From the NCBI RefSeq assembly GCF_013122565.1, contig NZ_CP053258.1: DNA of 64,000 nt; one strand, written 5' to 3'. A program made the position numbers and the translations under genes. Positions 42,342 through 54,240 of this stretch are shown here, piece after piece (position 1 is the stretch's first letter; each line of letters opens with the position of its first letter). Under the pieces are notes generated by a model. The model searched no databases. It was not told the DNA's origin and saw only the letters and a list, made by a program, of their open reading frames with translations. The stretch is from Escherichia coli (GTDB taxonomy: Bacteria; Pseudomonadota; Gammaproteobacteria; Enterobacterales; Enterobacteriaceae).

Positions 42342-42884
42342 ATGTTAAACCGTGACTTCGATCATCTCTCAACGCTATTACATCTCTTTTTTGAACGTGA
42401 GGATATTTGCCAAAAGCTTAATATTATTGACCAAAACAATATCACCGGTTGGGAAGTGTGGTTCCAGGTAGAGTTTGCTAATATGCTCTGCTCAACAGAC
42501 CATGAATGGTGGCGTGAACAAGCACTTTCCTGTGATATGCGCAAAAAACCTGAGCGCCCGACACTACGCACAGATTTCTTACTACGTAAAAAAGGCTGGG
42601 CACAAGATAGCTATATCGCGCTTGAAATAAAACAAAACAGAGACGCGACCAGTTGTGTTAAAAATATGATCGCAGACTTAGAAAAAAGCGCAAAAATAAA
42701 ACGTTCCGAACTCGATTTACGCAGTTTCTGGACCTTGGGTATCACCCCTATGATAGACAGGGAAAGGCTGGACTCTCTCATCGATTGCTATTTAGATGAG
42801 AAATTTTATCTTACTAAATCTCGTAAAAAACACGTTTTACTTAAAGAAATAAATAACACACCATATTGCTATATTGTTATTTAA
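42342..42884 (+). CDS. Hypothetical 180-aa protein, AT-rich, with PD-(D/E)xK-like motif arrangement
   Basis: SD AAGGA 8 nt upstream of ATG; candidate motifs E (WEVWFQVEF), D (LRTDFLL), ExK (IALEIKQ); low GC versus flanking genes. Confidence 0.5.
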   Translation: MLNRDFDHLSTLLHLFFEREDICQKLNIIDQNNITGWEVWFQVEFANMLCSTDHEWWREQALSCDMRKKPERPTLRTDFLLRKKGWAQDSYIALEIKQNRDATSCVKNMIADLEKSAKIKRSELDLRSFWTLGITPMIDRERLDSLIDCYLDEKFYLTKSRKKHVLLKEINNTPYCYIVI

Positions 42885-45590: not shown

Positions 45591-46547
45591 ATGAACCCGA
45601 TTGCAGTTACCCTACTCACCGGTTTTTTAGGCGCGGGCAAAACTACCCTGCTGCGCCATATTCTTAACGAACAACACGGCTACAAGATTGCCGTGATTGA
45701 AAACGAATTCGGCGAAGTCTCCGTTGATGATCAACTAATTGGCGACCGCGCCACGCAGATCAAAACGCTGACCAACGGCTGCATCTGCTGTTCGCGCTCC
45801 AACGAGCTGGAAGACGCACTACTCGACCTGCTGGATAATCTCGACAAGGGTAATATTCAGTTCGATCGTCTGGTGATTGAATGCACCGGCATGGCCGATC
45901 CCGGCCCGATTATTCAGACCTTTTTCTCCCATGAGATTTTATGCCAGCGCTACCTGCTGGACGGGGTGATTGCGCTGGTGGATGCGGTACATGCCGATGA
46001 GCAGATGAACCAGTTCACCATCGCCCAGTCCCAGGTTGGCTACGCCGACCGTATTCTGCTGACTAAAACCGACGTCGCAGGCGAAGCAGAAAAACTGCGT
46101 GAACGTCTGGCGCGCATCAACGCCCGCGCACCGGTCTACACCGTTACCCACGGCGACATCGACCTGGGCCTGCTGTTCAACACCAACGGTTTTATGCTGG
46201 AAGAAAACGTCGTCAGCACCAAACCGCGTTTCCACTTTATCGCGGACAAACAAAACGATATTTCGTCGATTGTGGTGGAACTGGATTACCCGGTAGATAT
46301 CAGCGAAGTTTCCCGGGTGATGGAAAACCTGCTGCTGGAATCGGCAGATAAACTGCTGCGTTACAAAGGGATGCTATGGATTGACGGCGAACCTAACCGC
46401 CTGCTGTTCCAGGGCGTCCAGCGCCTCTACAGCGCCGACTGGGACCGCCCGTGGGGCGATGAAAAACCGCATAGCACGATGGTGTTTATTGGGATTCAGC
46501 TGCCGGAGGATGAGATAAGGGCAGCGTTTGCGGGGTTGAGGAAGTAA
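45591..46547 (+). CDS. yjiA: CobW/YjiA-family metal-binding GTPase YjiA, 318 aa
   Basis: MNPIAVTLLTGFLGAGKTTLLRHIL (P-loop); CxCC motif GCICCS. Confidence 0.85.
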   Translation: MNPIAVTLLTGFLGAGKTTLLRHILNEQHGYKIAVIENEFGEVSVDDQLIGDRATQIKTLTNGCICCSRSNELEDALLDLLDNLDKGNIQFDRLVIECTGMADPGPIIQTFFSHEILCQRYLLDGVIALVDAVHADEQMNQFTIAQSQVGYADRILLTKTDVAGEAEKLRERLARINARAPVYTVTHGDIDLGLLFNTNGFMLEENVVSTKPRFHFIADKQNDISSIVVELDYPVDISEVSRVMENLLLESADKLLRYKGMLWIDGEPNRLLFQGVQRLYSADWDRPWGDEKPHSTMVFIGIQLPEDEIRAAFAGLRK

Positions 46548-46558
46548 TTTTGGATGAT

Positions 46559-46589
46559 GGCCGCCATGTGGCGGCCTGAATTATTTTTT
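46559..46589. terminator. Rho-independent terminator after yjiA
   Basis: Hairpin ggccgccatgtggcggcc followed by ttattttttg. Confidence 0.6.
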
Positions 46590-46883
46590 GTTCTGATCGC
46601 GCAGCATCGCTTCACGTAAAATTGCGTTCAGGCGAGTTTGATAGCCTTTACCAGGTCGCTTCAGCCATTCCATCACATCAGCATCAATACGCACCGAAGC
46701 CTGGGTTTTCAATGGCCGATAAAACTTACCGCGTTCTGCGTTAGACCATTGCTCATCGCTGGAAGGAGGGATATCGCTGTAATCAATATCTTCGTCGGAC
46801 TTATTCGCCAGTGCCTTCAGTTCGGCCTCATGCTGCACATCGAGTGTAGAGGAGGTCCCTCGTTTATGTTTAACCATGCTCAT
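46581..46883 (-). CDS. brnA: BrnA-like antitoxin (ribbon-helix-helix, DUF4415 type)
   Basis: DIDYSDIPPSSDEQWSNAERGKFYRPLKTQASVRIDADVMEWLKRPGKGYQTRLNAILREAM; start overlaps brnT 3' end; the 148-aa ORF-track model is an upstream extension. Confidence 0.75.
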   Translation of the reverse strand: MSMVKHKRGTSSTLDVQHEAELKALANKSDEDIDYSDIPPSSDEQWSNAERGKFYRPLKTQASVRIDADVMEWLKRPGKGYQTRLNAILREAMLRDQNKK

Positions 46884-47157
46884 AGCGACTCCTCTCTTTA
46901 CGATCTGCTTTTCGTGCACTGATGATGCGAATAATTTCATTTCCGCTTTCGAAACGGATGGTATGCGCAGCCAGAATAACCACGATACCGTGAACCACGC
47001 CGATAGTCTGCCAGCGATACTCACCATTTTCTATGCGATCTTGCTGTGACAAATGTTGTAGATCATCAAACACTAACACCGCATCTTCAAAGCGGATGCC
47101 ATGTTTCACCCGATTACTTTTGGCCTTGTTTGCATCCCATTCAAACTCCATTGGCAT
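46870..47157 (-). CDS. brnT: BrnT-like toxin (DUF497, RelE-fold ribonuclease)
   Basis: MEFEWDANKAKSNRVKHGIRFEDAVLVFDD signature; exact start (47151/47157/47166) uncertain. Confidence 0.8.
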   Translation of the reverse strand: MPMEFEWDANKAKSNRVKHGIRFEDAVLVFDDLQHLSQQDRIENGEYRWQTIGVVHGIVVILAAHTIRFESGNEIIRIISARKADRKERSRYEHG

Positions 47158-47172
47158 AGTTGCCATCCCTAA

Positions 47173-47215
47173 TTGTATATACAAAAATGTATCTACAATT
47201 ATTCTGCAATTATAG
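47173..47215 (-). promoter_or_regulatory. Putative brnTA promoter/operator (TATAAT plus palindromes TTGTATATACAA and TTGTAGATACA)
   Basis: Minus-strand TATAAT at 47212..47207 followed by two related palindromic sites immediately before the brnT start. Confidence 0.4.
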
Positions 47216-47311
47216 CGTTGATGTTGGAAATAGCATCACGTTTTAGGAAAAGATGGGGAAGTTGATATGAAGGGGCTGGATGGCAACATTGGGACACCAT
47301 CCAGCACTTAT

Positions 47312-48046
47312 TCAAACCTGATAGCAATCCACCAAAAATGCCATCATTTCACTGGCATCTTTGCTGTGATAAAAGCGCACCATTTTGCTGTTGAACTCCA
47401 GCGCACGAGCTGCGGGTACACTAATGGGATTGTAACCGTGGCGCATTAACCAGCCGTTCATCATATGGCGACTGGTACGCTTGTTGCCATCAAAGAAAAA
47501 CTGAAAATAAGCACCAAATAAAAACATTGCCAGCGCCCCTTCGAACGGTGGCATCTCTTTTATTTGTGCCACACCTGCGGCGAATATTCGATTCAGTTCA
47601 GGTGCACCTGCTTCAGTGGCTGGTGGAAAATGAGTGCCCAGTTCACCGAGATGAACGCGCGTATTGTAATGTAACTCTTCACCTTCGCCGCGAAAAACGC
47701 CCCACTCCAGCGCCTCATTACGCGCAATAATGCCGTTAAGCAACGTGAACGTTTTCTTATCAAGGTCGAAACGCCCGGATTGCACAAGTTCAATCAGTTT
47801 TTTTGCGCTATCTGCCAGGTTCAACACCTGCTCAGTATCACTGACCTTATGCCCGCCAACGGTGACACCATCGAGCAGCGTTTTAACTTCAACAAAGGTA
47901 TAGGGGTTATTTTCCAGTTGCGCGGCATCCCAGACAAACCCTGCCATATGCGTTTTGAAGGTAAACAAGGCTGCGCGCGTACCGACAATTTGCATCGCCG
48001 GGATGGCATTTGCATTCCAGCTCAGGTCCAGTAGTTTGGTTGTCAT
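47312..48046 (-). CDS. Fic/Doc-fold protein with non-canonical active-site motif QFFFDGNKRTSR (Gln in place of the catalytic His)
   Basis: QFFFDGNKRTSRHMMNGWLMRHGY aligns to the Fic motif HPFx[DE]GNGRxxR...GY; N-terminal AAQLENN resembles the inhibitory-helix motif; SD AAGGA before ATG; 43 bp downstream of the GmrSD-like gene. Confidence 0.7.
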   Translation of the reverse strand: MTTKLLDLSWNANAIPAMQIVGTRAALFTFKTHMAGFVWDAAQLENNPYTFVEVKTLLDGVTVGGHKVSDTEQVLNLADSAKKLIELVQSGRFDLDKKTFTLLNGIIARNEALEWGVFRGEGEELHYNTRVHLGELGTHFPPATEAGAPELNRIFAAGVAQIKEMPPFEGALAMFLFGAYFQFFFDGNKRTSRHMMNGWLMRHGYNPISVPAARALEFNSKMVRFYHSKDASEMMAFLVDCYQV

Positions 48047-48089
48047 TAGAGGATCCTTGATTGCATGGTAAAGAGGATATTATTCCATA

Positions 48090-50189
48090 TTAAGCCATCG
48101 CGTTATCCATCTGCTTTTCAAATGCCTGACGAATTAATCCCATCACATAAGGAAGCTCAGAAAGATCGCTGAAACCTACTTCAACATCGCCATTGCCCCA
48201 ACGGCCTATATCTGTGACATCTTTAGCCATACATTTTGGGTCAACCAGTTCATGGAATGGCATATTTAGTGATAAACGTAAGCGACTTTTTTGCGGCACC
48301 ACATCAACAAAATTCGTCTCCGCTTTGAAGGCAACATAGAGCTTCAATATTTCTCGCGTAACCCCAGCGTCCAGCGCCATAACGGCATCAGAAAGGCTGT
48401 CAAAAAGTACGCGGATATGCGTACCTTCTTCAAGTTGCGGGAAATCAGCAAGGATATATCCCGTTCCTCGTTCAATGACGGTGCGATAACGAGCCAACAC
48501 GTCTTCCGAAAGTTTGGGGATCGCCCAGACGTCTATTGCCAGCTCGGCCAGACGTTCCGCTCTCTTTTGTATCGCTGCACGATCCCATATTTCACATTGC
48601 CCTAACCCCGTGTTCAGGCGTAATGGACTTTCCTTAAAGCCACCTTTTATATCTCGCTTCTTCGTAAATGGACGGTCGCTGTAGCTTGAGTTATAGCCAG
48701 TTAACGTTAAATTACCCAACGTATGGAGCCACTTTTTATGGATACGCTTCCATTCCGGGCCAAGGTCATCGCGCCACTTCGCCGATAAATTAGGGTTCTG
48801 CGGCATGATATGTTCAATCGTATAAGTGTCAACATAGACCCGTTCTTTACGACCGTGGTTTTCAAATCTGCGTAGCCAATAGCTGCGATTACGGAAGTTG
48901 TAGAGGTCGCGAGTTTTCAGTTCACGTTGAAATTCATCATCATCCGGGAAACGACGGTAGGAAGGCAGTTCCAGCAAATGCGCCGCAATGCTCTCCAGAT
49001 AACGCTCTTTATCCAGCACTTTGTAAAACGTGGCGAAGGTTTTGGTAAATGAGTTGGTGGGAATGGCACAGACTGCGCGCCGGAAGATATACGACTCAAT
49101 TAAACGCGTGGCACTTAAAAAATCCGCGGCAGAAAGAATTCCCTGTTTATAGTCGTGATAAAGCACCAACAGGAACGGCCATGCAGCATCAACTTTCAGT
49201 TCCCGCAGATCCTGAAACGCCATCTTTAATATTTTGTCTTTTTCGCTATCCAGCGCCATCGCACAAAAATAATCCGCATAGGTACGAATATCCGCAACCA
49301 GCGCCTCCATCCCGCTATCCATCACTCCTGGTTTTCGCGCATAGCGTTTAAAGGCTTCATAGACATCACCAATTCGCGGAATCTCACCTGTTTTTACCGT
49401 CAGGTAATTACGCATAAAACTGTCGAAATAGTCAGTGTATCCCTTCTGACCAAACGCCAGCTCCATGGGCCGCCAGTAATCGTCGTACAGTTGGCTTTGA
49501 TGTTCTGGCTCCAGCCCCATCAAAACATAGTTGCGTACCAGATCCGCCTGACTCAGCGCTTTCCCTGTAGAGTTCATACTTTCGAAGATAAGTTGCGGAT
49601 TATCCTGACCGCGGTTCAAGGCGACATCCACAATCAGCAGTTTTGAAAGGCCCTGACATAACGCGGTGAAATTGCCGTGGAGTTTGCCTATTTGCTCATG
49701 GAAAAACTCAAAATTCTCTTTCACGCGTAGAGAGCAATTTTCTGCCAGCGGTTTTTGCCTAATCAATGCCAGCAGGCTCTCTCTGTCCGTTTGCGTAAGA
49801 AGTAACTTAAAACCACGCTCGCCCGATTCATACGGATTGAGCAGATAATAGTTTCGTAATTTCATGGCGGAGAAACCATCCATCACCTCGTCATCACCAA
49901 GATGTCTGGACAACGCTTCCAGCAATAACATCGCCGTTGTCAGGCGTTGCTGACCGTCAATCACCAGTAAGGGAGAGATCCCCGAAACCTGATATAGGCC
50001 CTGTTCGATATACACCACCGAGCCGATGAAATGCGCCGGGATATCATCACGCTGCCCGGCACGTATTACATCGTCCCAGAGCTGGCGGCACTGTTCCTCT
50101 GACCATGAATAAGTACGCTGATAAATGGGAATAACGAATTGCTGAGAGCGTTTTAGAAAATCGAGTAATCGGGCTTCGGTGGCTTTCAT
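48090..50189 (-). CDS. GmrSD-family Type IV (modification-dependent) restriction endonuclease, DUF262 + DUF1524 with extra C-terminal domain, 699 aa
   Basis: DUF262 motifs IPIYQRTYSW and DGQQRLTT; DUF1524 His-Me motifs EHIMPQ and HTLGNLTLT; SD AGGAG before ATG. Confidence 0.8.
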   Translation of the reverse strand: MKATEARLLDFLKRSQQFVIPIYQRTYSWSEEQCRQLWDDVIRAGQRDDIPAHFIGSVVYIEQGLYQVSGISPLLVIDGQQRLTTAMLLLEALSRHLGDDEVMDGFSAMKLRNYYLLNPYESGERGFKLLLTQTDRESLLALIRQKPLAENCSLRVKENFEFFHEQIGKLHGNFTALCQGLSKLLIVDVALNRGQDNPQLIFESMNSTGKALSQADLVRNYVLMGLEPEHQSQLYDDYWRPMELAFGQKGYTDYFDSFMRNYLTVKTGEIPRIGDVYEAFKRYARKPGVMDSGMEALVADIRTYADYFCAMALDSEKDKILKMAFQDLRELKVDAAWPFLLVLYHDYKQGILSAADFLSATRLIESYIFRRAVCAIPTNSFTKTFATFYKVLDKERYLESIAAHLLELPSYRRFPDDDEFQRELKTRDLYNFRNRSYWLRRFENHGRKERVYVDTYTIEHIMPQNPNLSAKWRDDLGPEWKRIHKKWLHTLGNLTLTGYNSSYSDRPFTKKRDIKGGFKESPLRLNTGLGQCEIWDRAAIQKRAERLAELAIDVWAIPKLSEDVLARYRTVIERGTGYILADFPQLEEGTHIRVLFDSLSDAVMALDAGVTREILKLYVAFKAETNFVDVVPQKSRLRLSLNMPFHELVDPKCMAKDVTDIGRWGNGDVEVGFSDLSELPYVMGLIRQAFEKQMDNAMA

Positions 50190-50473: not shown

Positions 50474-52819
50474 ATGACATCAACTAATTTCAGCCAGATT
50501 GCAGCCTTCCTGTGGTCTGTCGCCGACCTGTTACGCGGCGATTTTAAACAATCACAATATGGACGAATTATTCTTCCTTTTACCCTTTTGCGTCGTCTGG
50601 AATGCGTACTCGAAACAACGAAAGACGCGGTCATTGCTGAGGCGCAAAAAGTAAAAGCCATGAAACTGCCGGAGGAAGCCCAGGAGAAAATGATCCTGCG
50701 GGCGACTAATGGCCTGACGTTCTTTAACGCCTCAGCGATGGACCTCAGCAAAATGGGGCAAAATGGCATACAGGACAACCTGGAAAACTACATCCAGTCG
50801 TTCTCTTCGGATGCCCGCGAAATTTTCGAACACTTCAAGTTCAGCGAGTTTGTCGGACAGCTGGCGGATGCGAACTTGCTGTTCAAAGTGGTGCAAATAT
50901 TCGCTAAAGCAGATTTATACCCGGAGCATGTCACCAACCACGATATGGGGCTGGTGTTTGAGGAGCTGATCCGCCGTTTTGCCGAGAGTTCTAACGAAAC
51001 CGCCGGGGAGCACTTTACCCCGCGTGATATCGTCAATCTGACCACCTCGCTGGTGTTTTTCGATGATGATGACGCGCTCAATAAAGACGGCATCATCCGC
51101 ACCATTTACGACCCAACAGCGGGAACCGGCGGCTTTCTCTCCTCCGGCATGGAGTTCGTCCACAAACAAAACCCCAATGCCGTGATGCGCGCGTTTGGTC
51201 AGGAGTTAAACCCGGAATCCTACGCCATCTGTAAAGCCGACATGCTGATTAAGGGCCAGGACGTCAGCCTTATCAAACTCGGCAACACCCTGTCCAACGA
51301 TCAGCTCCCCGCAGAAAAATTCGATTACATGCTTTCTAATCCACCTTTCGGCGTGGACTGGAAAAAGATAGAAACCGACATCAACAACGAGCACAAACTC
51401 AAAGGTGCCGATGGTCGCTTTGGCCCCGGCCTGCCCCGCGTCTCTGACGGTTCGTTGCTGTTTCTGCTGCACCTGATCAGCAAAATGCGCGATGCCAAAA
51501 GCGGTGGCGGGCGGATCGGCATCATTCTTAATGGTTCGCCGTTATTCACCGGCGGTGCAGGAAGCGGTGAAAGCGAGATCCGCCGCTACATTCTGGAAGC
51601 GGATTTGCTGGAAGGCATTATCGCCCTGCCCACCGACATGTTTTACAACACCGGTATCGCTACCTATGTTTGGGTGCTGTCCAACAAAAAAGCGCCAGAA
51701 CGCAAAGGTAAAGTCCAGCTTATCGACGCCAGCAACCTGTGCGGCAAAATGCGTAAGTCGCTGGGATCAAAACGTAATATTCTCGGGGAGGAGGATATTG
51801 GTTTAATCACCCGCACGTTTGGCGATTTCGAACCCGTTGCCACCACCACGCTCGCGGCGTTAGGCCTGGAGAAAGCACCTGAACAAAAATCCAGCCGGGG
51901 ACGCCAGCCGACCACAACCAAAGCTGAGGCGGCAAAAACCTTTGCCAGCAAAGTCTTTTACAGCACCGAATTTGGCTATCGACGCATCACCGTTGAGCGC
52001 CCGTTGCGCCTGTCGTCTCAGATCACCGATGACGCTATTGCCACATTGCGCTTTGCGCCGAAGCCGTTTAACGCGCCGATGGCACAACTGTATGACGCCT
52101 TTGCTTTCCAGTGGCAGGACGGTAATTACGGCGACTTAACAGCGGTAGAAAGTGAAGCACGCGCCATTCTTAAAGCCGATTTTAGCGAGCTGAAAGAGAA
52201 GCAAATTAAAGATCTGCTCGACAGCAAATTATGGCTGGCCCAGCGCGGGTTAATGGAAAAAGCGCGGCGTATACAGGCGGCGATGGGGATGCTGGCGGGT
52301 GGCAAAGAGACCGTTAGCAATGACTTTAATCAGTTCCAGTTGACGCTGAAAGAGGCGTTCAAAACCGCAGGCGTGAAGCTGGATGCGAAAGAGAACAAGC
52401 AGTTTATCGATGCTATCACCCGCAAAAACCCGGACGCCGAGCCGGTAGTCAGCAAGGTACTGAAAGAAGCGGCACAACCGCTGTATGGCGCGTTTGAGTA
52501 CCACGGAAAGGTTGTGGAGTTTGAGCCGGATGGCGACCTGCGCGATAACGTGAATGTGCCGCTGAACCCGACGGTATCTACCAGCGAGTTGATCGAGGGT
52601 TACTTCAAAGCGGAAGTATTGCCGCACGTCGCGGATGCGTGGATTAACGCCGATAAGCGCGATGCGAAAGATGGGGATATCGGGATTGTGGGGTATGAAA
52701 TTCCGTTTAACCGCCATTTTTATGTTTATCAGCCGCCGAGGCCGCTGGAGGAGATTGATGCGGATCTGGATGCGGTAAGCGCTGAGATTATGAAACTGTT
52801 GCAGGAGGTACATTCCTGA
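50474..52819 (+). CDS. hsdM: Type I restriction-modification N6-adenine DNA methyltransferase subunit HsdM (long form, about 780 aa)
   Basis: AdoMet motif [11 protein letters not shown] and catalytic NPPFG; stop overlaps hsdS start; ORF track extends to 50465. Confidence 0.9.
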
Positions 52820-54240
52820 TGGCAGGGTTAAATAAATATCAGGCGTATCCGGAGTATAGGGATTCTGGGGTGGAGTGGTTGGGGGAGATACCCTCACACT
52901 GGAGCGTTAGCAAGCCCCGTTATATGTTTAATTTCGGCAAAGGGCTTACAATTACCAAAGAGAATCTCCAGGACGACGGGATACCTTGCATTAACTACGG
53001 TGAAATCCATTCAAAATATGGTTTTGAAGTATCCCCCAAAATTCACCCATTGAAATGCGTTGATGAGAAGTATATAAAAGATAATTCAGGCTCATTACTT
53101 TTAAAAGGAGACATTATTTTTGCAGACACATCTGAAGATATTGATGGTTCCGGTAATTTCTCACAACTAATCAGCGATAATATTTCATTCGCTGGTTATC
53201 ATACAATTATTGCCAAACCACTTAATAGAAGAAATTGGCGATTTTATGCTTATCTTCTTGATTGCAAAGAGTTGCGAACCCAAGTTAGACATGCAGTTAA
53301 GGGAGTAAAGGTATTTAGCATTACACAAGCTATTTTACGCGGCCTTTCTATTTGGCTCCCTACGGATGATGAACAGAGTAAAATAGCTGATTTCCTCGAC
53401 CACGAAACTGTAAAAATCGACAACCTAATCAAGAAACAACAACAACTCATTGAACTACTGAAAGAAAAACGTCAGGCAGTGATTAGCCATGCGGTGACCA
53501 AAGGGCTAAATCCTGATGTGCCGATGAAAGATTCTGGGGTTGCGTGGTTGGGGAAAATACCAAAACATTGGGAAATGAGTAAACTACGCTACATGTTTCG
53601 CTTCGGAAAAGGTCTAACAATTACAAAAGAACATCTGCACGATGAGGGGGTTCCATGTGTTAACTATGGCGAAATACATTCTAAATTTGGTTTCGAAATC
53701 GACCCTCAAATTCACAAATTAAAATGTGTTGATGAATCGTACATTCTAAATAACCCCGACTCATTGATCTATAAAGGAGATATTATATTTGCAGATACAT
53801 CTGAAGACATTGACGGCGCTGGTAATTTTACACAATTGATTAGCGATAACCAAATATTTGCCGGTTATCACACTATTATATTACGCCCTCTTAATAGAGA
53901 GTCCTTAAGGTTTTATGCATATATATTTGATAGCAAAGCACTACGGGCACAAATTAGTAATGCAGTGAAAGGCGTGAAAGTATTTAGTATTACTCAAGCC
54001 ATTCTTCGAAGTACATCGATATGGTTTCCACCATTATCAGAACGAGAACGTATTGTTGCATTTCTCGATAACCAAACAATAAAAATCGATACCCTAATTG
54101 AGAAACAACTCCACCAAATAGCTCTCCTAAAAGAACGCCGCACCGCCCTTATCTCCGCTGCCGTCACCGGAAAAATCGACCTACGCAACTGGACCGCCCC
54201 CATCCCCGAAGCGGAAACACCCACGGAGGCCAGCGCATGA
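52819..54240 (+). CDS. hsdS: Type I R-M specificity subunit HsdS with two near-identical target-recognition halves
   Basis: Two tandem TRD-plus-conserved-helix units (KPRYMFNFGKGLTITKENL... and KLRYMFRFGKGLTITKEHL...); ATGA overlap with hsdR. Confidence 0.9.
   Translation: MAGLNKYQAYPEYRDSGVEWLGEIPSHWSVSKPRYMFNFGKGLTITKENLQDDGIPCINYGEIHSKYGFEVSPKIHPLKCVDEKYIKDNSGSLLLKGDIIFADTSEDIDGSGNFSQLISDNISFAGYHTIIAKPLNRRNWRFYAYLLDCKELRTQVRHAVKGVKVFSITQAILRGLSIWLPTDDEQSKIADFLDHETVKIDNLIKKQQQLIELLKEKRQAVISHAVTKGLNPDVPMKDSGVAWLGKIPKHWEMSKLRYMFRFGKGLTITKEHLHDEGVPCVNYGEIHSKFGFEIDPQIHKLKCVDESYILNNPDSLIYKGDIIFADTSEDIDGAGNFTQLISDNQIFAGYHTIILRPLNRESLRFYAYIFDSKALRAQISNAVKGVKVFSITQAILRSTSIWFPPLSERERIVAFLDNQTIKIDTLIEKQLHQIALLKERRTALISAAVTGKIDLRNWTAPIPEAETPTEASA

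What the first reader, a model, noticed from the sequence alone, without database searches (positions are those of the whole stretch)
46581..47215. BrnT/BrnA-like toxin-antitoxin pair at the island boundary, with palindromic operator
The toxin ORF carries the DUF497/BrnT signature (MEFEWDANKAKSNRVKHGIRFEDAVLVFDD). The overlapping downstream ORF has the BrnA-like C-terminal region (...GKGYQTRLNAILREAM). The promoter region contains palindromes TTGTATATACAA and TTGTAGATACA next to a TATAAT box, consistent with autoregulation. The ORF-track model of a 148-aa antitoxin is probably an artefactual upstream extension overlapping brnT.
Basis: partly seen in the sequence, partly recalled or inferred. 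Interest (0 to 1): 0.45.

Follow-up and report, generated by a model that had tools for sequence, protein, structure and literature searches.

The report
Ordinary BrnT/BrnA toxin-antitoxin operon
This is a standard, already annotated two-gene toxin-antitoxin cassette (BrnT RNase toxin and BrnA antidote/repressor) that sits next to yjiA in about 39% of complete E. coli genomes; it is real but ordinary.

Summary
On the minus strand lie brnT (47157..46870, 95 aa; Pfam BrnT_toxin PF04365, E 5.9e-23) and brnA (46883..46581, 100 aa; Pfam BrnA_antitoxin PF14384, E 3.1e-17). They overlap by 14 nt.

RefSeq annotates exactly these two genes in 2,111 of 5,426 complete E. coli genomes, always beside yjiA. 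Both exact proteins are already in NCBI under these names. A Salmonella Typhimurium orthologue complex is solved (PDB 7VD7; toxin about 83% identical).

Small corrections:
- The two "palindromes" are two TGTA-NN-TACA subsites 14 bp apart, inside a 32-bp palindrome just downstream of TATAAT.

This motif is about 1,200-fold enriched upstream of brnT in 80 loci from other species, and it covaries with the BrnA ribbon sequence. That supports the operator reading.

Extras:
- The window's toxin allele is rare and carries P33L at a conserved proline.
- About 16% of brnA-positive E. coli genomes have lost brnT.
- The cassette edge is fixed while the neighbouring restriction island varies.

Novelty is low and no activity was tested.

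The parts
46870..47157 (-). brnT, 95-aa toxin (MPMEFEWDANK...RYEHG), stop TAA at 46872..46870
   Evidence: Pfam PF04365, E 5.9e-23. PHROG 4399 'ribonuclease toxin of AT system', E 5.6e-22. PDB 7VD7_A, E 1.6e-50 over the full length. The RefSeq gene model has the same length. The ATGCC start is invariant in 15 loci.
46581..46883 (-). brnA, 100-aa antitoxin (MSMVKHKRG...LRDQNKK); N-terminal toxin-binding part and C-terminal putative ribbon-helix-helix
   Evidence: Pfam PF14384, E 3.1e-17. PDB 7VD7_B matches residues 14-57, E 1.4e-16. The RefSeq model is 100 aa. The exact sequence is seen on at least 1000 contigs. The AF2 model has helices 68-75 and 81-99.
46889..46896 (-). Shine-Dalgarno GAGAGGAG for brnA, 5 nt before ATG 46883, inside the end of brnT (translational coupling)
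   Evidence: Read directly from the sequence.
47166..47170 (-). Shine-Dalgarno AGGGA for brnT, 8 nt before ATG 47157
   Evidence: Read from the sequence. AGG(G/A) is conserved in the alignment of 15 loci.
47174..47183 (-).
   Evidence: Present upstream of brnT in all Enterobacterales loci examined.
47188..47197 (-). Operator subsite 1, TGTAGATACA, 14 bp upstream of subsite 2
   Evidence: The 14-bp spacing is seen in 13 of 15 site pairs. This subsite is more variable among orthologues.
47170..47201 (.). 32-bp composite palindrome TAATTGTAGATACA-TTTT-TGTATATACAATTA holding both subsites
   Evidence: Inverted repeat I1: 14-nt arms, 93% complementary.
47209..47214 (-). Candidate -10 box TATAAT; the predicted transcription start falls at about the operator edge
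   Evidence: Read from the sequence. TATnnT is invariant in 15 diverged loci. No good -35 was found, and the scan did not call a promoter.
47223..47244 (-). Conserved block AAAACGTGATGCTATTTCCAAC at the outer edge of the cassette; role unknown
   Evidence: Invariant columns in alignment A2. Homology with other contexts ends at 47243/47244.
46559..46576 (.). GC-rich hairpin GGCCGCCATGTGGCGGCC between the convergent yjiA and brnA; likely a shared terminator
   Evidence: Terminator scan. RNA fold -16.5 kcal/mol, z -4.25. The T-run is on the yjiA side only.
46548..47244 (-). Whole brnTA cassette (about 700 bp) between the yjiA stop codon and the variable restriction island
   Evidence: Breakpoints.

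Best explanation
This is a canonical type II toxin-antitoxin operon of the BrnT/BrnA family, transcribed on the minus strand from a promoter at about 47214.

Proposed mechanism:
1. BrnT (95 aa) is a small RelE-like ribonuclease that would arrest translation if free.
2. BrnA (100 aa) is translated from a start that overlaps the end of brnT.
3. BrnA's N-terminal half wraps the toxin and neutralises it.
4. BrnA's C-terminal ribbon-helix-helix part dimerises and binds two TGTA-NN-TACA subsites, 14 bp apart, that cover the transcription start region. The complex therefore represses its own operon.
5. If synthesis stops and the antitoxin is degraded, the toxin is freed.

Shown here: family membership by sequence, gene order and overlap, retention of four of the five residues reported as needed for RNase activity, purifying selection on both genes, and deep conservation of the operator motif.

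Inferred from the Brucella and Salmonella relatives: RNase activity, neutralisation, 2:2 complex formation, DNA binding and antitoxin lability.

The cassette is an old resident of the yjiA edge of the E. coli immigration-control (restriction) region. It is kept, eroded or lost lineage by lineage, and its most likely role is selfish persistence (addiction).
For: - Family: Pfam full-length matches. PHROG toxin and antitoxin families. RefSeq names and gene models.
- Solved relatives: PDB 7VD7, a Salmonella Typhimurium toxin-antitoxin complex. BrnT matches at E 1.6e-50 and about 83% identity; BrnA residues 14-57 match at E 1.4e-16. Brucella BrnT 3U97 matches at E 6e-4.
- Catalytic residues: the review PMC5086665 lists Brucella D6, E7, K9, R41 and E78. 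In the alignment these correspond to D8, A9, K11, R48 and E88 here. D8, K11, R48 and E88 are conserved in 65-69 of 69 homologues.
- Selection: Ka/Ks is 0.04-0.09 for both genes against Citrobacter, Klebsiella and other Enterobacteriaceae orthologues, wherever Ks could be estimated.
- Gene arrangement: toxin-first order with the antitoxin ORF starting at or just inside the toxin's end is kept in most loci where the BrnA N-terminus aligned.
- Operator: 50 hits in 8.8 kb of upstream windows against 2 in 431 kb of flanks, with 14-bp spacing.
- Covariation: BrnA ribbon ASVRI goes with TGTATATACA in 33 of 33 loci, and LTLRL with TGTAGTTACA in 7 of 7.
- Promoter: TATnnT is invariant in 15 loci.
- Plasmids: homologues occur on 785 plasmids, 564 of them Acinetobacter, which fits an addiction role.
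Against: - No experiment of any kind was done.
- NCBIfam has no model hit.
- No acceptable -35 hexamer exists, and the promoter scan is silent on this strand.
- The residue matching Brucella E7 is Ala here. That position is variable in this clade.
- The window's BrnT allele is rare (one contig) and carries P33L, where 60 of 69 homologues have Pro. This copy may be attenuated.
- The ribbon-helix-helix fold of BrnA rests on the Pfam family, the predicted strand-helix-helix order (monomer model, pLDDT 75) and a weak NikR match (E 0.57). Foldseek found no RHH structure.
Confidence: 0.9

Rival explanations
1. The module in this strain is a decaying remnant. The rare P33L/V63A toxin allele is attenuated or dead, so the locus now works only as an autoregulated antitoxin. 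It could act as an anti-addiction module against incoming brnTA-bearing plasmids, or it may have no function.
For: - The exact BrnT sequence is seen on a single contig, whereas the BrnA sequence is seen on at least 1000 contigs.
- P33 is Pro in 60 of 69 homologues and in all 13 close alleles examined.
- About 331 of 2,111 brnA-positive E. coli genomes have brnT deleted or truncated with brnA intact.
- A further roughly 410-514 genomes keep only a 63-aa brnA relic at the same site.
Against: - The ORF is intact.
- All four conserved RNase-linked residues are present.
- Position 33 is not invariant: E, K, G and even L occur in distant homologues.
- The operator, Shine-Dalgarno sequences and -10 box are all intact.
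Confidence: 0.2
2. The pair acts as a phage-defence (abortive infection) or island-anchoring module for the adjacent restriction island, rather than being merely selfish.
For: - It sits at the first position of the hypervariable restriction region, next to Fic, GmrSD and type I R-M genes.
- The yjiA region is listed as an integration hotspot for defence-carrying elements in E. coli (bioRxiv 10.1101/2022.06.09.495481).
- In five loci from uncultured proteobacteria, brnTA is embedded between hsdM and hsdS.
Against: - PADLOC has no model for either protein.
- No paper in the held library reports BrnTA defence activity.
- The cassette persists unchanged when the island cargo differs, and even when the island is deleted, as in ETEC H10407. 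So it neither travels with the island nor protects it.
- The same position next to yjiA in Citrobacter suggests vertical residence.
Confidence: 0.15
3. The two ORFs and the palindromes are chance features of an intergenic stretch.
For: None beyond the general fact that ORF lists contain spurious ORFs.
Against: - E-values of 1e-17 to 1e-50 against Pfam and PDB.
- Ka/Ks well below 0.1.
- About 1,200-fold motif enrichment.
Confidence: 0.01

Closest known systems
Salmonella enterica serovar Typhimurium toxin-antitoxin complex, PDB 7VD7 (released 2022)
   Same: Orthologous pair. The toxin aligns end to end (E 1.6e-50, about 83% identical), including the PMEFEWDANK N-terminus. Antitoxin residues 14-57 align at E 1.4e-16. 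Its sequences are nearest to the Citrobacter loci among those fetched, most of which lie next to yjiA.
   Different: It comes from a different species. The crystal holds only the N-terminal 44-residue toxin-binding fragment of the antitoxin, so the DNA-binding domain and operator are not covered. I could not read the associated paper.
BrnT/BrnA of Brucella abortus (Heaton et al. 2012, J Biol Chem 287:12098; PDB 3U97), the founding member
   Same: Same two Pfam families, toxin-first operon, and antitoxin with a C-terminal RHH that autoregulates (as summarised in PMC5086665 and PMC11980606). The residues equivalent to D6, K9, R41 and E78 are conserved here.
   Different: Only distant sequence similarity (E 6e-4; 33% identity in alignment A3). 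The E7 equivalent is Ala here. The Brucella toxin lacks the DDPxHLS segment. I did not examine the operator sequence of the Brucella system.
Plasmid-borne BrnTA pairs of Acinetobacter (RefSeq 'BrnT family toxin / BrnA antitoxin family protein')
   Same: Same family and gene order, about 55-58% toxin identity. They are found on 564 Acinetobacter plasmids, many small, which fits a plasmid-addiction role.
   Different: These are plasmid-borne, whereas this pair is fixed at one chromosomal site. I did not examine their promoters.
RelE/ParE-superfamily type II modules with RHH antitoxins (for example RelBE, ParDE)
   Same: Small BECR/RelE-like RNase toxin, RHH antitoxin, and autorepression through palindromic operators overlapping the promoter (PMC11980606; general knowledge).
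   Different: Gene order is toxin-first rather than antitoxin-first. They belong to separate Pfam families. Whether BrnT depends on the ribosome is unknown.

Membership tests
BrnT/BrnA type II toxin-antitoxin family | Toxin carries the BrnT_toxin (PF04365, ex-DUF497) domain | tested here: met
   E 5.9e-23, model positions 1-77 of 77. PDB 7VD7_A E 1.6e-50 and 3U97 E 6e-4.
BrnT/BrnA type II toxin-antitoxin family | Antitoxin carries the BrnA_antitoxin (PF14384, ex-DUF4415) domain | tested here: met
   E 3.1e-17, model positions 1-68 of 68. Source names include 'DUF4415 family'.
BrnT/BrnA type II toxin-antitoxin family | Two-gene operon, toxin first, antitoxin immediately downstream or overlapping | tested here: met
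   14-nt overlap with a Shine-Dalgarno sequence inside brnT. The same arrangement, with the antitoxin ORF starting at or just inside the toxin's end, is seen in most of the loci where the BrnA N-terminus aligned.
BrnT/BrnA type II toxin-antitoxin family | Residues required for RNase activity in Brucella BrnT (D6, E7, K9, R41, E78; PMC5086665) | tested here: inconclusive
   Four of five are kept (D8, K11, R48, E88). The E7 equivalent is A9, a position that varies across 69 homologues. The window allele also has P33L at a conserved Pro.
BrnT/BrnA type II toxin-antitoxin family | Antitoxin C-terminal ribbon-helix-helix DNA-binding fold | tested here: inconclusive
   The AF2 monomer (pLDDT 75) gives coil 60-66, helix 68-75 and helix 81-99, the order expected for RHH. 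A profile search gives only a weak match to the NikR RHH (E 0.57). Foldseek found no RHH hit.
BrnT/BrnA type II toxin-antitoxin family | Autoregulation by binding of the complex to its own promoter | not testable with these tools
   Indirect support only: the conserved TGTA-NN-TACA pair over the predicted transcription start, its enrichment, and its covariation with the BrnA ribbon.
BrnT/BrnA type II toxin-antitoxin family | Toxicity of BrnT and neutralisation by BrnA; 2:2 complex | not testable with these tools
   Inferred from the Brucella work and the existence of the Salmonella co-crystal 7VD7.
Recognised anti-phage defence systems (PADLOC-DB 2.0) | Match to a PADLOC protein model | tested here: not met
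   No family matched BrnT or BrnA. The neighbouring GmrSD-like protein does match (E 3e-216).

The most novel reading that the evidence does not exclude
BrnTA is not just a selfish passenger. On this reading it is functionally tied to type I restriction-modification loci. It is anchored at the yjiA edge of the E. coli/Citrobacter restriction region, and in some uncultured proteobacteria it is inserted between hsdM and hsdS without its own operator. It would act as a latent RNase back-up (PrrC-like abortive infection) or as a stabiliser of the restriction locus. A smaller novel element is that the BrnA ribbon reads a TGTA-NN-TACA code that covaries with ribbon sequence across Proteobacteria. 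I did not find this described in the held literature.
Probability: 0.1. Interest if true: 0.5.

Novelty: already known. Interest (0 to 1): 0.15.

Why it matters
It matters little beyond correct annotation.

- It confirms that a raw-sequence reader can recognise a BrnTA module, its true antitoxin start and its operator.
- Useful by-products:
  - A defined operator consensus: two TGTA-NN-TACA sites 14 bp apart.
  - Fixed cassette borders (46548-47244).
  - A population picture in E. coli: 39% carry brnA; about 16% of those have lost the toxin; roughly 8-9% more of all complete genomes keep only a relic.
- These could serve anyone who wants to test BrnTA regulation, or TA decay at the edge of the immigration-control region.

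Tried and rejected
- NCBIfam scan of both proteins and of the 148-aa ORF: no hits, so naming rests on Pfam, PHROG and PDB.
- PADLOC: nothing for BrnT or BrnA.
- Rfam scan of 46300-47500: only a sub-threshold chance hit, drz-agam-1 at 21.5 bits against a gathering score of 37. No known RNA element or antisense RNA.
- Sigma-70 scan: no promoter called on the minus strand. I considered an alternative promoter inside the operator (TTGTAG, 15 nt, TACAAT). I rejected it for this locus because it would cut off the Shine-Dalgarno sequence.
- CRP-site reading of the conserved TGTGA block: rejected, because its spacing to the -10 box does not fit class I or class II geometry.
- Foldseek of the BrnA model against PDB: only 7VD7_B was returned, no RHH structure.
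- Literature: Heaton et al. 2012 (PMC3320955) is not held. No held paper mentions 7VD7 in context, the E. coli pair, or the operator sequence.
- The third TGTANNTACA match in the window (4287-4296) is isolated. I treated it as chance.

Full report
**What is there.** The feature lies on the minus strand of 46548-47244, between the convergent gene yjiA (45591..46547, +) and a Fic-family gene (47312..48046, -).

- brnT runs 47157..46870 (95 aa, MPMEFEWDANKAKSNRVKHGIRFEDAVLVFDDLQHL...RYEHG).
- brnA runs 46883..46581 (100 aa, MSMVKHKRG...GKGYQTRLNAILREAMLRDQNKK).
- brnA's ATG lies 14 nt inside brnT and is preceded by GAGAGGAG at a 5-nt distance.
- brnT's ATG is preceded by AGGGA at 8 nt.
- A GC-rich hairpin (46559-46576; -16.5 kcal/mol, z -4.25) sits between brnA and yjiA.

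**Family assignment.**

- BrnT matches Pfam PF04365 BrnT_toxin over the whole model (E 5.9e-23) and PHROG 4399 "ribonuclease toxin of AT system".
- BrnA matches PF14384 BrnA_antitoxin over the whole model (E 3.1e-17).
- Against solved structures, BrnT aligns end to end with chain A of 7VD7 (E 1.6e-50, about 83% identical). BrnA residues 14-57 align with chain B (E 1.4e-16). The fold search identifies 7VD7 as a toxin-antitoxin complex from Salmonella Typhimurium, released 2022.
- The founding member, Brucella BrnT (3U97), matches weakly (E 6e-4).
- NCBIfam and PADLOC have no model for either protein.

**It is already annotated.**

- Megablast finds the cassette in 2,111 of 5,426 complete E. coli genomes. 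It occurs once per genome, and every record listed shows it next to yjiA. It is annotated "BrnT family toxin" (95 aa) and "BrnA antitoxin family protein" (100 aa).
- The exact window BrnT is WP_171459872.1.
- The exact window BrnA is a MULTISPECIES Enterobacteriaceae protein seen on at least 1000 contigs.
ATG-CCN at 47157 is invariant in 15 orthologous loci, whereas the third codon is ACG, TTA or ATA in several.

**The operator.**

- With the second site it forms two TGTA-NN-TACA subsites (47197..47188 and 47183..47174). Their starts are 14 bp apart, and they are embedded in a 32-bp palindrome (47170-47201).
- I fetched 80 brnT loci from other species and scanned them. TGTA-NN-TACA occurs 50 times in the 8.8 kb of -100..+10 windows, against twice in 431 kb of flanks. 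That is roughly 1,200-fold enrichment. Thirteen of 15 site pairs are spaced 14 bp apart.
- The motif persists in Enterobacter, Xenorhabdus, Photorhabdus, Erwinia and Pantoea loci whose remaining upstream DNA is unrelated. It appears as TGTAGTTACA, TGTAATTACA or TGTAGTAACA in alpha- and beta-proteobacteria.
- The central bases covary with the predicted BrnA ribbon. ASVRI goes with TGTATATACA in 33 of 33 loci, and LTLRL with TGTAGTTACA in 7 of 7. Three loci with the ribbon ITNVSV have no site. These groups are phylogenetically correlated, so this is supportive rather than proof.
- TATAAT (47214..47209) lies immediately upstream, and TATnnT is invariant in 15 diverged loci. A start about 7 nt downstream would place the operator at roughly +1 to +32.
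- No acceptable -35 hexamer exists and the consensus scan is silent.
- A conserved 22-bp block (47244..47223) upstream of the -10 box is unexplained.

**Is the toxin likely active?**

- A review of the Brucella work lists D6, E7, K9, R41 and E78 as needed for RNase activity (PMC5086665).
- In the alignment these correspond to D8, A9, K11, R48 and E88 here.
- D8, K11, R48 and E88 are present and conserved in 65-69 of 69 homologues. The A9 position is variable throughout the clade.
- Ka/Ks for both genes against other Enterobacteriaceae is 0.04-0.09.
- Caveat: the window's allele differs from the common E. coli allele by P33L and V63A. Pro33 is present in 60 of 69 homologues and in all 13 close alleles I aligned. 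This exact protein is recorded on a single contig. It may be attenuated, but I cannot tell.

**BrnA's DNA-binding domain.** An AlphaFold2 monomer built from 37 homologues (pLDDT 75) gives coil 60-66, helix 68-75 and helix 81-99. That order is expected for a ribbon-helix-helix, whose strand forms only in the dimer. A profile search of PDB gives only a weak NikR RHH match (E 0.57), and Foldseek gives none. I therefore mark the fold as inconclusive by direct test and rely on the Pfam family.

**Context and population picture.**

- The window carries tsr, btsT, yjiX and yjiA, then brnA and brnT. Next come Fic, a GmrSD-like DUF262 enzyme (PADLOC hit E 3e-216), type I hsdM/S/R, yjiR, an Rpn nuclease and mdtM. 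This is the immigration-control region of E. coli.
- Nearly all genomes (5,382 of 5,426) share yjiA. In those without brnTA, homology stops at or just short of the yjiA stop codon.
- The other cassette edge is 47243/47244 in E. coli strains with three different neighbours: Fic/GmrSD/type I R-M; a restriction endonuclease plus another type I R-M in ST131; and IS1 with deletion through to mdtM in ETEC H10407. The edge is the same in E. albertii and Citrobacter.
- Seven Citrobacter or related loci, and a Pluralibacter locus, also have brnTA next to yjiA.
- The cassette therefore behaves as an old resident of the yjiA flank, not as cargo of the variable island.
- It also decays. About 331 of the 2,111 genomes carry one of two deletions that remove or truncate brnT but keep brnA: 46933-47220 or 46893-47054. 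A further roughly 410-514 genomes retain only a 63-aa brnA relic lacking the C-terminal domain.
- Homologues are abundant on plasmids: 785 records, 564 of them Acinetobacter.

**Mechanism (best estimate).** This is a standard type II module.

1. BrnT is an RNase.
2. BrnA's N-terminal half neutralises it, as in 7VD7.
3. BrnA's RHH dimers sit on the two subsites and repress the operon.
4. Loss of antitoxin frees the toxin.

Family membership, architecture, residue conservation, selection and the operator footprint are shown here. Enzymatic activity, neutralisation, DNA binding and antitoxin lability are inferred from relatives. A defence or island-anchoring role is possible but unsupported. PADLOC lacks the family, and the island changes or disappears while the cassette stays. 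The one hint is that in five uncultured-proteobacterial loci brnTA sits between hsdM and hsdS without an operator.

**Verdict.** The feature is already known and annotated, so interest is low.

Noticed in passing
window 47059-47061 (codon 33 of brnT) and 46969-46971 (codon 63): The window's BrnT allele (WP_171459872.1, seen on one contig) has P33L and V63A relative to the common E. coli allele. Pro33 is present in 60 of 69 homologues. This may be an attenuating change.
   Followed up: partly
L084 (deletion of window 46933-47220); L085 and L086 (deletion of window 46893-47054): About 331 of 2,111 brnA-positive complete E. coli genomes have lost or truncated brnT through two recurrent deletions while keeping an intact brnA, leaving orphan antitoxins.
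   Followed up: partly
L089 4385-5584 (E. coli FORC_028, same slot next to yjiA): Some 'brnTA-negative' genomes (about 410-514) carry a 63-aa 'antitoxin' that is a diverged BrnA N-terminus without the DNA-binding domain. Next to it is a 322-aa hypothetical protein with no Pfam match.
   Followed up: partly
window 47223-47244 (minus strand): A conserved block AAAACGTGATGCTATTTCCAAC forms the outer edge of the cassette. It is nearly invariant in 15 enterobacterial loci but does not look like a -35 box. Its role is unknown.
   Followed up: partly
L043 578-5165; also L044, L047, L051, L066: In uncultured proteobacteria brnT starts at the stop codon of a type I hsdM gene. In the three loci where the downstream DNA was recovered (L043, L047, L051), brnTA lies between hsdM and hsdS. 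There is no TGTA-NN-TACA operator, and where brnA was recovered it has a different ribbon (ITNVSV).
   Followed up: partly
window 47312-50189 (minus strand): A Fic-family protein (244 aa; PHROG 11900 E 2.8e-43; weak PADLOC PDC-S24) lies directly downstream of a 699-aa GmrSD-like DUF262 enzyme (PADLOC 'Orf5' E 3e-216). They may be co-transcribed. This brnTA/Fic/GmrSD/type I R-M arrangement covers at least 80% of window 40000-64000 in only 51 genomes.
   Followed up: no
window 47275-47305: A perfect 9-bp inverted repeat GCTGGATGG / CCATCCAGC with a 13-nt loop lies just after the Fic stop codon and outside the brnTA cassette edge. It may be the Fic terminator or a junction scar.
   Followed up: no
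window 42342-42884 (+): A 180-aa low-GC (about 36-44%) hypothetical ORF lies between tsr and btsT. It is present in 362 E. coli genomes and has no Pfam, NCBIfam or PHROG family. The window lacks the 11-kb hpa cluster that other strains carry at this position.
   Followed up: partly
window 57566-58279 (+): A 237-aa hypothetical ORF with about 33% GC lies immediately after hsdR. It has no family match and is annotated 'hypothetical protein' in the related genome.
   Followed up: no
window 52819-54240 (+): The hsdS specificity gene is 473 aa here, against 446 aa in the closest syntenic genome (L083). It has a low-GC core (0.37), so the window probably encodes a different type I target specificity.
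   Followed up: no
whole window: Core genes are only about 97-98% identical to the best complete E. coli genomes over 24-25 kb stretches. This is somewhat divergent for E. coli. The exact BrnT protein points to a single 4.82-Mb E. coli contig.
   Followed up: no
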